A stretch of 64,000 bases of DNA from Candidatus Omnitrophota bacterium. Lineage in GTDB: Bacteria > Omnitrophota > Gorgyraeia > Zapsychrales > Fredricksoniimonadaceae. Every line of letters begins with the position of its first letter. Positions within the stretch are counted from its first letter, which is position 1. Made by a program: the position numbers and the translations under genes. Below the pieces are notes generated by a model. The model had not been told where the DNA came from. It ran no database searches and saw only the letters and a list, made by a program, of their open reading frames with translations. The stretch is taken from positions 49,648 through 113,647 of the forward strand of contig JACQCF010000014.1 of assembly GCA_016201795.1 (NCBI GenBank). Reading direction: 5' to 3'. Positions 1,795-2,210 of this stretch are shown piece after piece.

Positions 1795-2210
1795 TGAAAT
1801 TTCCCCCTCCCCTTGTGGGAGGGGTTAGGGGAGGGGAATTTGAAAAAAAGCTTAACAAAAACTGCCAGAGGACTAAGAAATAACGCTACGGAGGCTGAAA
1901 AACATCTTTGGTATATGCTGTGTCTCAAAAATCTTGGCGTTAAATTTCGCAGGCAAGCGCTGATAGGCCGTTACATAGGTGATTTTGTATGCTTTGAAAA
2001 GCGGTTGGTCATTGAAATTGATGGTGGACAACATGCGGATAGTGAGAATGACAAAATCCGCGATAGATGGCTTAGAGCAGAAGGATTTGAAGTGTTAAGG
2101 TTTTGGAATCATGATATGCTGAGGAATCGAGATGGGGTACTAGAAAAGATTACGGAACGATTGAATACCCCCACCCTGACCCTCCCCACAGGGGGGAGGG
2201 AATCCATGTT
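1795..2210 (+). mobile_element. Palindromic G/C-rich element carrying a DUF559 endonuclease gene (terminal inverted repeats about 1803-1836 and 2168-2205)
   Basis: Left arm ccccctccccttgtgggaggggttaggggagggg. Right arm cccccaccctgaccctccccacaggggggagggaatcc, which is its near reverse complement. The same arms recur without a gene at 29961-30063 and 41767-41870. Confidence 0.6.

What the first reader, a model, noticed from the sequence alone, without database searches (positions are those of the whole stretch)
1795..2210. DUF559 endonuclease gene embedded in a palindromic G/C-rich element: a candidate autonomous selfish element
The 145-aa DUF559 (Vsr-like fold) ORF starts inside a self-complementary repeat (cccctcccc ttgtggg aggggttaggggagggg, which translates to WEGLGEG). 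It is followed by the inverted partner (ccccaccctgaccctccccacaggggggagggaatcc). The gene interrupts an otherwise syntenic run of housekeeping-type genes. It has its own short spacer regions, consistent with a homing-endonuclease-like or MITE-parent element rather than a conventional gene.
Basis: seen in the sequence. Interest (0 to 1): 0.6.

Follow-up and report, generated by a model that had tools for sequence, protein, structure and literature searches.

The report
Mobile DUF559 nuclease inside triplex-motif repeats
A 529-base insertion whose only gene is a small DNA-cutting enzyme of unknown role (DUF559) is bracketed by the G/C-rich 'BoxC/triplex' repeats found in many bacterial genomes, which suggests that this enzyme family is the partner those repeats have lacked.

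Summary
ORF 1813-2250 (probable start TTG 1840) is DUF559 (E 2.4e-36). It lies between two inverted G/C-rich units, 1799-1839 and 2166-2205.

A related metagenome contig has the empty site. The window carries 529 extra bases (1744-2272) with their own A/T-rich terminal inverted repeats and a perfect 9-bp target duplication, CAAGAATAA. The same element sits at other sites elsewhere, once with another perfect 9-bp duplication.

Two gene-less doublets of the same G/C units lie at 29963-30062 and 41767-41870. Each unit (C tract, loop, G tract, TTA, G tract) has the architecture of the published BoxC/PIT/TMECO intrastrand-triplex repeat. Its authors found no mobility gene near those repeats.

The units stay 82-97% identical where synonymous sites are saturated (dN/dS 0.04-0.13). 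Lineage-specific versions flank DUF559 genes in several phyla, including E. coli ycjD.

Best reading: a REPIN/RAYT-like partnership built on a Vsr/homing-endonuclease-fold nuclease. Mobility is shown. The nuclease-repeat mechanism is inferred. I found no paper describing the link.

The parts
1735..1743 (+). Left copy of the 9-bp target-site duplication CAAGAATAA. It contains the TAA stop codon of the upstream SPFH/Band 7 gene (982-1743).
   Evidence: Present once in the empty site of L131 and twice in the window, exactly at the insertion junctions.
1744..2272 (+). The whole inserted element, 529 bp.
   Evidence: Absent from the orthologous site in L131. A 528-bp counterpart in L003 lies between different genes, flanked by ACTAACTAA on both sides. 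Further copies are in L139, L140 and L141.
1744..1764 (+). Outer left terminal inverted repeat, GGTAGTATCAAAATTTTTATG.
   Evidence: Forms an inverted repeat with 2253-2272 (pairs I4 and I8). The same end is seen in L003, L139, L140 and L141.
1799..1839 (+). Left G/C unit, C-G-G type: C tract 1803-1812, loop TTGT, G tract 1817-1824, loop TTA, G tract 1828-1836. The last G tract provides the GGAGG ribosome-binding site for the TTG start.
   Evidence: Same unit, same position and TTG start in five of the six other Omnitrophota/Chlamydiae contexts. Its architecture is that of the published BoxC/PIT/TMECO motif.
1840..2250 (+). The folded domain is about residues 1-110 (1840-2170). The tail is a translation of the right unit and the outer region.
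2166..2205 (+). Right G/C unit, C-C-G type, the reverse complement of the left kind: C tract 2167-2176, C tract 2180-2187, loop ACAGG, G tract 2193-2200.
   Evidence: The distance from left hairpin to right hairpin is 376-380 bp in six independent loci.
2253..2272 (+). Outer right terminal inverted repeat, TAAAAATTTTTGACAATACG.
   Evidence: The region between the right unit and this end is conserved in many homologs, seen as the translated tail ...KLS.NTEDKKIK.KNF.
2273..2281 (+). Right copy of the target-site duplication CAAGAATAA. It is followed by the ribosome-binding site and ATG (2298) of the DUF1326 gene.
29963..30062 (-). Gene-less doublet B: the two G/C units about 26 nt apart, in the opposite orientation to the DUF559 element. 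Intergenic.
   Evidence: units 91-93% identical to those of the element. Folds as one long hairpin, -30.7 kcal/mol, z -4.2.
41767..41870 (-). Gene-less doublet C. The alignment with B has 86% mean column identity and the spacers are visibly similar. It starts 6 nt after the stop codon of a NuoF-like gene.
   Evidence: At the orthologous site of a relative whose NuoF is 91% identical (L150), a 32-nt terminator-like hairpin stands in its place.

Best explanation
Window 1744-2272 is a 0.53-kb mobile element that inserted between two co-transcribed host genes. Its only gene is a DUF559 nuclease. This protein has a PD-(D/E)XK fold and resembles the catalytic domain of the homing endonuclease I-Bth0305I more closely than it resembles Vsr.

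The gene is bracketed by an inverted pair of roughly 40-nt G/C units of the BoxC/PIT/TMECO 'intrastrand triplex' kind. I propose that these units are the nuclease's cognate DNA sites. On this reading, gene plus units form a REPIN/RAYT-like partnership. One or a few gene-bearing copies supply a structure- or sequence-specific nuclease. That nuclease nicks or cuts at the units. The breaks then drive copying, maintenance and dispersal of gene-less unit doublets such as B and C, and of the gene-bearing element itself.

Shown:
- the insertion, its 9-bp duplication and its terminal repeats;
- occurrence of the element at several different genomic sites;
- strong purifying selection on the protein;
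- stronger-than-neutral conservation of the non-coding units;
- linkage between DUF559 genes and such units across phyla.

Inferred:
- that the protein cuts DNA;
- that the units are its target;
- that it, rather than a transposase acting in trans, drives movement.
For: Insertion:
- The empty site in L131 and a perfect 9-bp duplication in the window.
- A second element in L003 with a perfect 9-bp duplication, ACTAACTAA, between unrelated genes.
- An identical DUF559 protein (P0098) with two different right flanks, in L139 and L140.
- The core arrangement, unit-DUF559-unit, in seven different gene neighbourhoods.

Selection:
- dN/dS is 0.04-0.13, and synonymous sites are saturated (pS up to 0.8).
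- Over the same comparisons the non-coding units stay 82-97% identical.
- The catalytic-type residues D48, E59, D61 and H65 are invariant.

Linkage beyond this clade:
- I searched 1.84 billion representative proteins with the domain alone. Of the 150 best hits, 87 carry a translated-repeat motif in their called head or tail, against 4.7 expected from shuffled heads and tails.
- In 8 of 8 DUF559 loci chosen by protein similarity alone, lineage-specific C-G-G or C-C-G hairpin units lie in the 1.3-kb stretches examined, within about 100 bp of the ORF in most. The eight are Deinococcus, Azospirillum, Sphingomonas, Synechocystis, Neisseria gonorrhoeae, Picosynechococcus, Sinorhizobium and Photobacterium.
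- Two alphaproteobacterial DUF559 genes, in L035 and L102, are flanked by the very same hairpin.
- E. coli ycjD ends in a degenerate unit, and TMECO no. 9 lies 167 nt away.

Gene-less doublets occur in the window (B, C), in L059 and in L132.

The published work on these repeats found no mobility gene near them.
Against: - There is no biochemistry for any DUF559 protein on such DNA.
- A PD-(D/E)XK nuclease has no known strand-transfer activity, and a 9-bp duplication with terminal inverted repeats is the hallmark of DDE transposases. The A/T-rich outer ends may therefore be used by an enzyme encoded elsewhere.
- B and C share only the G/C units with the element. They lack its outer ends, and their spacers show no significant similarity to the ORF ends.
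- The core-only copies (L005, L009, L132, L135, L137) show no target duplication.
- Of 120 hairpin-selected loci, 114 have no DUF559 within the 8 kb held. A repeat population predicts this, but so does independence.
- E. coli phylogroups D, E and F lack ycjD at the sapF-fabI site (except ST69 and ST182) yet hold 6-15 TMECO copies.
- The only studied DUF559 protein, Caulobacter VsrA, is interpreted as a mismatch-repair-type nuclease linked to a cytosine methylase.
Confidence: 0.5

Rival explanations
1. The 0.53-kb element is a non-autonomous MITE. An unidentified DDE-type transposase recognising the A/T-rich outer repeats moves it in trans. DUF559 and its G/C units are cargo and play no part in movement.
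For: Terminal inverted repeats with a 9-bp duplication are typical of DDE transposition. Nucleases of this fold are not known to join DNA. The Logan assemblies of the same strain break inside the G/C unit and not at the outer repeat, so the outer element may be low-copy in this genome.
Against: The outer ends were found only next to DUF559 in all the sequence held. The ORF, the units and the outer regions have stayed together while protein identity fell to about 58% (P0098 and its relatives). The ORF is under strong purifying selection, which is unusual for MITE cargo. The core without outer ends also occurs at five other sites.
Confidence: 0.2
2. Homing model. Gene-less unit doublets are pre-existing dispersed target sites. 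The DUF559 nuclease cuts an empty doublet. Repair from an occupied copy, using the roughly 40-nt units as homology arms, then copies the ORF in. The repeats are the target of the gene, not its product.
For: The fold is closest, after the DUF559 structure itself, to a homing endonuclease. The ORF always lies exactly between an inverted pair of units at a fixed spacing of 376-380 bp. Doublets in both arrangements exist without the gene. The core-only copies show no target duplication.
Against: This model does not explain the outer repeats or the 9-bp duplication of the window element. It does not explain how the doublets themselves spread. No doublet was found that matches the element's flanks at an orthologous empty site.
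Confidence: 0.15
3. DUF559 here is an ordinary host repair or restriction-type nuclease, like Vsr or VsrA. The G/C palindromes are generic REP-like structural elements (RNA stabilisers or terminators) that happen to be common in intergenic DNA.
For: Caulobacter VsrA, a DUF559 protein, behaves as a chromosomal nuclease linked to cytosine methylation. The protein is under purifying selection. Doublet C replaces a terminator-like hairpin present in a relative.
Against: There is presence/absence polymorphism with a target duplication. The same element lies at unrelated sites. The background density of the units is about 1 per 20 kb or lower, yet every DUF559 copy examined has them on both sides. 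The Vsr model scores 21 bits against a cut-off of 97.85. No methylase is adjacent. Published tests found no promoter or terminator activity for the E. coli units.
Confidence: 0.1

Closest known systems
BoxC / PIT / TMECO intrastrand-triplex motif repeats (Bachellier 1990s; Hoyne and Maher 2000; Holder et al. 2015, PMC4666352)
   Same: The units share the three-tract architecture: C tract, loop of 3-6 nt, G tract, 3-nt loop (TTA, 'type A'), G tract. They are intergenic, occur on either strand, are often found as close inverted pairs, and are highly conserved across distant bacteria.
   Different: The window units have 8-nt stems (CCCTCCCC/GGGGAGGG) and do not match the exact TMECO consensus CCCTCNCCC-N3-6-GGGNGAGGG-N3-GGGNGAGGG. 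The source organism is Omnitrophota, whereas the published survey reports proteobacteria and cyanobacteria. The published work reports no associated mobility gene. Here the units bracket a nuclease gene inside a mobile insertion.
REPIN-RAYT systems (REP doublets and their REP-associated tyrosine transposase)
   Same: Short palindromic units form inverted doublets that fold into a long hairpin. A small gene is flanked by the units in inverted orientation. The gene is under purifying selection. Gene-less doublets outnumber the gene.
   Different: The gene is a PD-(D/E)XK (Vsr/EDxHD-fold) nuclease, not a Y1 HUH transposase. The units are triplex-type G/C tracts without a GTAG head. At least one sub-lineage of the gene-bearing element has terminal inverted repeats and a 9-bp duplication, which IS200-type chemistry does not produce.
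I-Bth0305I (EDxHD family homing endonuclease, PDB 3R3P)
   Different: Sequence identity is only 21%. The window gene is not inside an intron or intein and has no extra DNA-binding domain. Its insertion leaves a target duplication, which homing does not.
YcjD (E. coli b1289) and NGO0050 (N. gonorrhoeae, PDB 3HRL), DUF559 proteins of unknown function
   Different: Identity is about 42-44%. The window protein scores below the NCBIfam equivalog cut-off for YcjD (85.7 against 218). No outer terminal repeats or target duplication were seen at ycjD.
Vsr very-short-patch repair endonuclease
   Different: The Vsr model scores far below its cut-off. No adjacent cytosine methylase is present.
MITEs and small insertion sequences
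   Same: The element has terminal inverted repeats, a 9-bp target duplication, small size and an intergenic insertion site, and an empty site was found in a relative.
   Different: It encodes no recognisable transposase. It does carry a conserved, selected ORF, which MITEs by definition lack.

Membership tests
DUF559 (Pfam PF04480) | Match to the family model above the gathering score | tested here: met
   124.4 bits against 20.6, E 2.4e-36, covering profile positions 2-108 of 109.
DUF559 (Pfam PF04480) | PD-(D/E)XK-type fold with conserved acidic and histidine residues | tested here: met
Vsr mismatch endonuclease | Score above the NCBIfam TIGR00632 cut-off | tested here: not met
   21.1 bits against a cut-off of 97.85.
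Vsr mismatch endonuclease | Genetic linkage to a cytosine-5 methyltransferase | tested here: not met
   The neighbours are SPFH/Band 7 and DUF1326/PpoB2. None of the seven other contexts shows a methylase next to the gene.
BoxC/PIT/TMECO triplex-motif repeat | Three consecutive tracts, C-G-G or the complement C-C-G, with loops of 3-6 nt and 3 nt | tested here: met
   CCCCCTCCCC-TTGT-GGGAGGGG-TTA-GGGGAGGGG at 1803-1836, its complement type at 2167-2200, and all four ends of B and C. The pattern is as described.
BoxC/PIT/TMECO triplex-motif repeat | Exact TMECO consensus CCCTCNCCC N3-6 GGGNGAGGG N3 GGGNGAGGG | tested here: not met
   Read directly from the sequences. The G tracts are GGGGAGGG or GGGAGGGG (8 nt) and GGGTGGGGG. 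This is a variant, not the E. coli consensus.
BoxC/PIT/TMECO triplex-motif repeat | Actual formation of an intrastrand triplex | not testable with these tools
   Only hairpin folding could be computed.
REPIN-RAYT system | Palindromic units in inverted doublets, and a gene flanked by inverted units | tested here: met
REPIN-RAYT system | The associated gene is a Y1 (HUH) tyrosine transposase | tested here: not met
   The gene is DUF559 with a PD-(D/E)XK fold.
REPIN-RAYT system | Single-copy gene with many repeats per genome | tested here: inconclusive
   One gene and three unit pairs lie in 64 kb.
TIR transposable element (IS or MITE) | Terminal inverted repeats and a target-site duplication, verified against an empty site | tested here: met
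   A second perfect 9-bp duplication is in L003.
TIR transposable element (IS or MITE) | Encodes a recognised transposase (for an IS), or encodes nothing (for a MITE) | tested here: not met
   The only ORF is DUF559, which is conserved and under selection.
Homing endonuclease gene (EDxHD family) | Catalytic-domain fold | tested here: met
Homing endonuclease gene (EDxHD family) | Resides in an intron, an intein or a conserved gene, and cleaves the empty allele | tested here: not met
   The gene is intergenic, between SPFH and DUF1326, and the insertion has a target duplication. Cleavage cannot be tested here.

The most novel reading that the evidence does not exclude
DUF559 proteins, including E. 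coli YcjD and N. gonorrhoeae NGO0050, may be the cognate nucleases of the BoxC/PIT/TMECO-type G/C triplex repeats throughout bacteria. They would recognise these units and drive their spread and the genome instability reported around them. That would make a second kind of REPIN/RAYT-like system, built on a PD-(D/E)XK nuclease. In this reading the 0.53-kb element in the window is an autonomous transposable element whose only gene is that nuclease. It would be smaller than IS200 (about 0.7 kb by my recollection, not checked here), which I take to be the smallest known autonomous insertion sequence, and it would use a mechanism not yet described.
Probability: 0.3. Interest if true: 0.9.

Novelty: new variant of a known kind. 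Interest (0 to 1): 0.78.

Why it matters
Two unknowns would explain each other.

BoxC/PIT/TMECO repeats were first noted in the 1990s. They occur thousands of times across proteobacteria and cyanobacteria and are linked to local genome rearrangement. They have no known origin, function or mobilising enzyme. The most detailed study states that no transposase or integrase was ever found near them.

DUF559 (COG2852, YcjD) is a very large family, with about 23,000 representative clusters in this search. A structure has been solved, but no function is agreed.

A physical and evolutionary link between the two makes both questions testable with simple experiments: nuclease assays on the flanking units, and a ycjD deletion followed by a check of TMECO stability. 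It would also add a nuclease-based counterpart to the REPIN/RAYT paradigm.

There is a practical point too. Gene callers routinely extend DUF559 ORFs into the repeats, so many database entries carry spurious proline/glycine-rich heads and tails.

Tried and rejected
- **B and C as deletion derivatives.** I asked whether the gene-less doublets are internal-deletion derivatives of the DUF559 element. Local alignment of their spacers to the first and last 35 nt of the inner region of six elements, tested against windows from the middle of the ORF, gave p of about 0.4-1 in 11 of 12 tests. This is not supported.\n- **An outer repeat next to doublet C.** I first thought the sequence beside C (41871-41908, GGTGATGTCAAGAG... 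on the minus strand) was an outer terminal repeat. The relative L150 lacks the doublet but keeps this sequence. It is therefore host promoter-like DNA, and I rejected the idea.\n- **Target duplications around core-only copies.** In L005, L009, L132, L135 and L137 only 7-9-nt chance-level repeats turned up, none at the element boundaries.\n- **Own promoter or terminator.** None was found in 1650-2350.\n- **Known RNA family.** Nothing in the whole window reaches an Rfam gathering score.\n- **Defence-system membership.** There are only weak partial PADLOC hits, to DpdF and PDC-S37.\n- **E. coli correlation.** Phylogroups A, B1 and C carry ycjD and have mostly 19-30 TMECO copies (UMNK88 has 13). 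B2 lacks ycjD and has 1-2. D, E and F have 6-15. This is suggestive, but it follows the phylogeny, and the D/E/F strains lack ycjD at that locus.

Full report
**Observation**

The 145-aa ORF at 1813-2250 is a confident DUF559 match (PF04480, E 2.4e-36). It starts at a TTG inside a palindrome and translates WEGLGEG. The deposited protein (P0001, 136 aa, 'Candidatus Omnitrophica bacterium') starts at the next in-frame TTG, at 1840. That codon lies 3 nt after GGGGAGGGG, so the G tract supplies the ribosome-binding site. Five of the six other contexts I read show the same TTG start just after the tract; L005 does not.

The arms are CCCCTCCC/GGGAGGGG at 1804-1824 and CCCTCCCC/GGGGAGGG at 2180-2200, within a 37-nt inverted repeat. 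They are not chance. The hairpin pattern occurs three times in 64 kb against 0.00 expected. A 20-mer across the two G tracts hits exactly six ends against 0.00 expected. All six ends align.

**What was actually inserted**

I searched metagenome contigs with the downstream DUF1326 protein. One close relative came back (L131, 94% protein identity). In it the SPFH gene ends ...GAAACAAGAATAA and runs straight into AAAATGGAGG-ATG of DUF1326. The window has 529 extra bases, 1744-2272, flanked on both sides by CAAGAATAA (1735-1743 and 2273-2281). This is a perfect 9-bp target-site duplication that includes the host stop codon.

The ends of the insertion are not the G/C palindromes. They are A/T-rich inverted repeats: GGTAGTATCAAAATTTTTATG on the left and TAAAAATTTTTGACAATACG on the right, with a common core TGTCAAAAATTTT.

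The same architecture occurs elsewhere.
- L003 has a DUF559 83% identical, between a phosphoribosyltransferase gene and a PAS/GGDEF gene. The 528-bp element there is flanked by ACTAACTAA on both sides.
- L141 has an imperfect 8-bp duplication.
- L139 and L140 carry an identical DUF559 protein, but the sequence to the right diverges immediately after ...TTTTGACAGAACC.

The region between the right palindrome and the outer end shows up in many homologs as a conserved translated tail...KLS.NTEDKKIK.KNF. It persists down to about 58% protein identity. The element is therefore a real, old family of small mobile insertions whose only gene is DUF559.

**The G/C units**

Inside the outer ends, the gene is bracketed by two units of about 40 nt in inverted orientation. 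On the left is a C tract, TTGT, a G tract, TTA and a G tract. On the right is the reverse-complement kind.

I read seven independent gene neighbourhoods: the window, L003, L005, L009, L132, L135 and L137. The last is from a Chlamydiae MAG; the others that carry a source name are Omnitrophota MAGs. The same units sit at the same places in all seven. Hairpin-to-hairpin distance is 376-380 bp in six. In L137 an insertion of about 70 nt sits in the right loop.

Five of these copies lack the outer repeats, and I found no target duplication for them.

The window also holds two gene-less doublets of the same units, B (29963-30062) and C (41767-41870). Both are in the opposite orientation to the DUF559 element. 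Their units are 88-94% identical to those of the element. Aligned to each other they give 86% mean column identity, and their spacers are visibly similar. Similar doublets occur in L059 and L132.

At the orthologous position of C, a relative whose NuoF is 91% identical has a 32-nt terminator-like hairpin instead. C is therefore also lineage-specific.

**Selection**

Across six core elements the protein evolves under dN/dS 0.04-0.13. Synonymous sites are saturated in most pairs (pS up to 0.8). Over the same comparisons the non-coding units remain 82-97% identical. The units are thus constrained more strongly than neutral DNA, and the ORF encodes a working protein.

In all eight cases where the upstream gene is known, DUF559 points the same way as it (the window plus the gene tables). 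The element has no promoter-like or terminator-like site of its own. This fits expression by read-through and little harm to the interrupted operon.

**What the units are**

Most were alphaproteobacterial, and many carried inverted pairs 50-160 bp apart in both arrangements.

Looking at E. coli ycjD, the K-12 DUF559 gene, I found that it ends in a degenerate unit. About 170 bp downstream lies CCCCTCGCCCCTCTGGGGAGAGGGTTAGGGTGAGGGG. This is the repeat known as BoxC, later PIT, later TMECO.

Holder et al. (PMC4666352) describe the pattern as a C tract, a 3-6 nt loop, a G tract, a 3-nt loop (TTA in 'type A') and a G tract. They report 3610 copies in 262 proteobacterial genomes and related motifs in cyanobacteria. 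The copies are always intergenic and often in inverted pairs, and are associated with local rearrangement. [quoted passage not shown] Their Table S2 lists TMECO no. 9 between fabI and ycjD, 167 nt from ycjD, without comment.

The window units share this architecture. They do not match the exact E. coli consensus, because their stems are 8 nt long.

**How general the link is**

I ran three checks that were not selected on the repeat.

1. I searched 1.84 billion representative proteins with the domain alone (residues 1-108). This found 22,964 DUF559 clusters. Among the best 150 (36-72% identity, nearly all 49% or more), 87 carry a proline-rich-then-G[E/G/R] motif in the called head or tail. Examples are PSPLAGEG, PSPTRGEG and PLPNPPHKGEG, the typical translation of such units. 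Shuffled heads and tails give 4.7 expected.
2. I took eight DUF559 loci by tblastn from annotated plasmids and chromids: Deinococcus, Azospirillum, Sphingomonas, Synechocystis, N. gonorrhoeae (the 3HRL gene), Picosynechococcus, Sinorhizobium and Photobacterium. All eight have C-G-G or C-C-G hairpin units in the 1.3-kb stretches examined, within about 100 bp of the ORF in most. The tract sequence differs by lineage, for example CTCTCCCC in Sinorhizobium, TCCCCC in Picosynechococcus and CCTCCCCC in Deinococcus.
3. Among the hairpin-selected alphaproteobacterial loci, two DUF559 genes (L035, L102) are flanked on both sides in the same arrangement as in the window.

The background density of the units in the Omnitrophota loci is about one pair per 20 kb or less.

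**Mechanism**

The best-supported reading is a REPIN/RAYT-like partnership. A small nuclease gene lies between inverted copies of its cognate palindromic units. Gene-less doublets of the same units are scattered through the genome.

What is shown is mobility, selection on both protein and units, and linkage. What is inferred is that the protein cuts DNA, that the units are its site, and that the breaks drive copying.

The main difficulty is chemistry. A PD-(D/E)XK nuclease is not known to join DNA, and terminal repeats with a 9-bp duplication look like DDE transposition. So the outer ends may be served in trans by an unidentified transposase (rival 1). Alternatively, the ORF may home into pre-existing doublets using the units as homology arms (rival 2).

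A purely host-gene reading (rival 3) is hard to keep. It must contend with the empty site, the duplication, the unrelated insertion sites and the failed Vsr membership test. Even so, the one studied DUF559 protein, Caulobacter VsrA, is interpreted as a repair-type nuclease.

**Weaker leads**

In E. coli, ycjD is present in phylogroups A, B1 and C. The strains of those groups that I could place have 13-30 TMECO copies, mostly 19-30. B2 strains lack ycjD and have 1-2. D, E and F strains have 6-15. I assigned strains to phylogroups from memory. The trend fits the model, but it follows the phylogeny and is not clean.

Assemblies of the same strain break inside the left G/C unit. Most homolog contigs are under 2 kb. 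Both observations are what a repeated sequence would produce.

**Novelty**

Each component is known. DUF559 has a solved structure and unknown function. BoxC/PIT/TMECO repeats have unknown origin and function. REPIN/RAYT logic, MITE hallmarks and EDxHD homing endonucleases are all described.

I found no paper connecting DUF559/YcjD with these repeats, or describing a TIR element whose only gene is such a nuclease. The library lacks many subscription-journal papers, so an earlier description cannot be excluded.

I rate this a new variant of a known kind. If the nuclease proves to be the mobilising enzyme, it would be categorically new.

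Noticed in passing
window 29963-30062 and 41767-41870: Two gene-less doublets of the same G/C units lie here, in the opposite orientation to the DUF559 element. Their alignment has 86% mean column identity and the spacers are visibly similar. Each lies just downstream of a stop codon.
   Followed up: yes
L140 75-111; L137 about 9590-9660: Small foreign insertions sit exactly in the loops of the G/C hairpins. L140 has 37 nt in the left loop, with CTTGTGG duplicated on both sides. The Chlamydiae copy (L137) has about 70 nt in the right loop. 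The loops may be break or insertion hot spots.
   Followed up: no
L138 (E. coli K-12 NC_000913, 1351040-1351410; ycjD-fabI spacer): The last codons of ycjD overlap a degenerate C-C-G unit. A roughly 45-nt duplicate of the ycjD 3' end follows. Then comes a partial unit (GGGTTAGGGG) and the complete TMECO no. 9.
   Followed up: partly
E. coli genomes (literature tables): TMECO copy number tracks the phylogroups that carry ycjD. A, B1 and C have 13-30 copies, mostly 19-30. B2 has 1-2. D, E and F have 6-15. In ycjD-negative strains the eefRABCD operon occupies the same sapF-fabI site.
   Followed up: partly
L150 2177-2210, against window 41761-41876: At the site of doublet C, a relative carries two short complementary hairpins (AGCCAAAGGCT and CCGCCTTTGGCGG) followed by AAAATTTTT, which looks like an intrinsic terminator. 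The doublet seems to have replaced it.
   Followed up: partly
L001 and L002 (Logan contigs of the same strain): Both contigs end about 60 nt after the SPFH stop codon, inside the left G/C unit. The assembly breaks at the repeat, not at the outer terminal repeat.
   Followed up: partly
window 1817-1836 and the equivalent tracts of B and C: GGGAGGGGTTAGGGGAGGGG has four G runs and so also fits a G-quadruplex motif. The complementary strand of the right unit does the same.
   Followed up: no
window 42100-42192: A separate long palindrome of about 90 nt (TGTGTCATTGCGA...TCGCAATGACACACA) with an inner hairpin lies just upstream of a 485-aa gene that starts at 42181. It is unrelated in sequence to the G/C units.
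   Followed up: no
window 43675-43698: Another perfect G/C hairpin, CCCGTCCCGCATTTGCGGGACGGG, lies just after the stop codon of the 485-aa ORF (42181-43638). It has no third tract. It may be a terminator.
   Followed up: no
database entries P0121-P0268: Many deposited DUF559 proteins have long proline/glycine-rich heads or tails that are translations of flanking repeats. Some carry several repeat copies in a row. The called ORF boundaries for this family are often wrong.
   Followed up: partly
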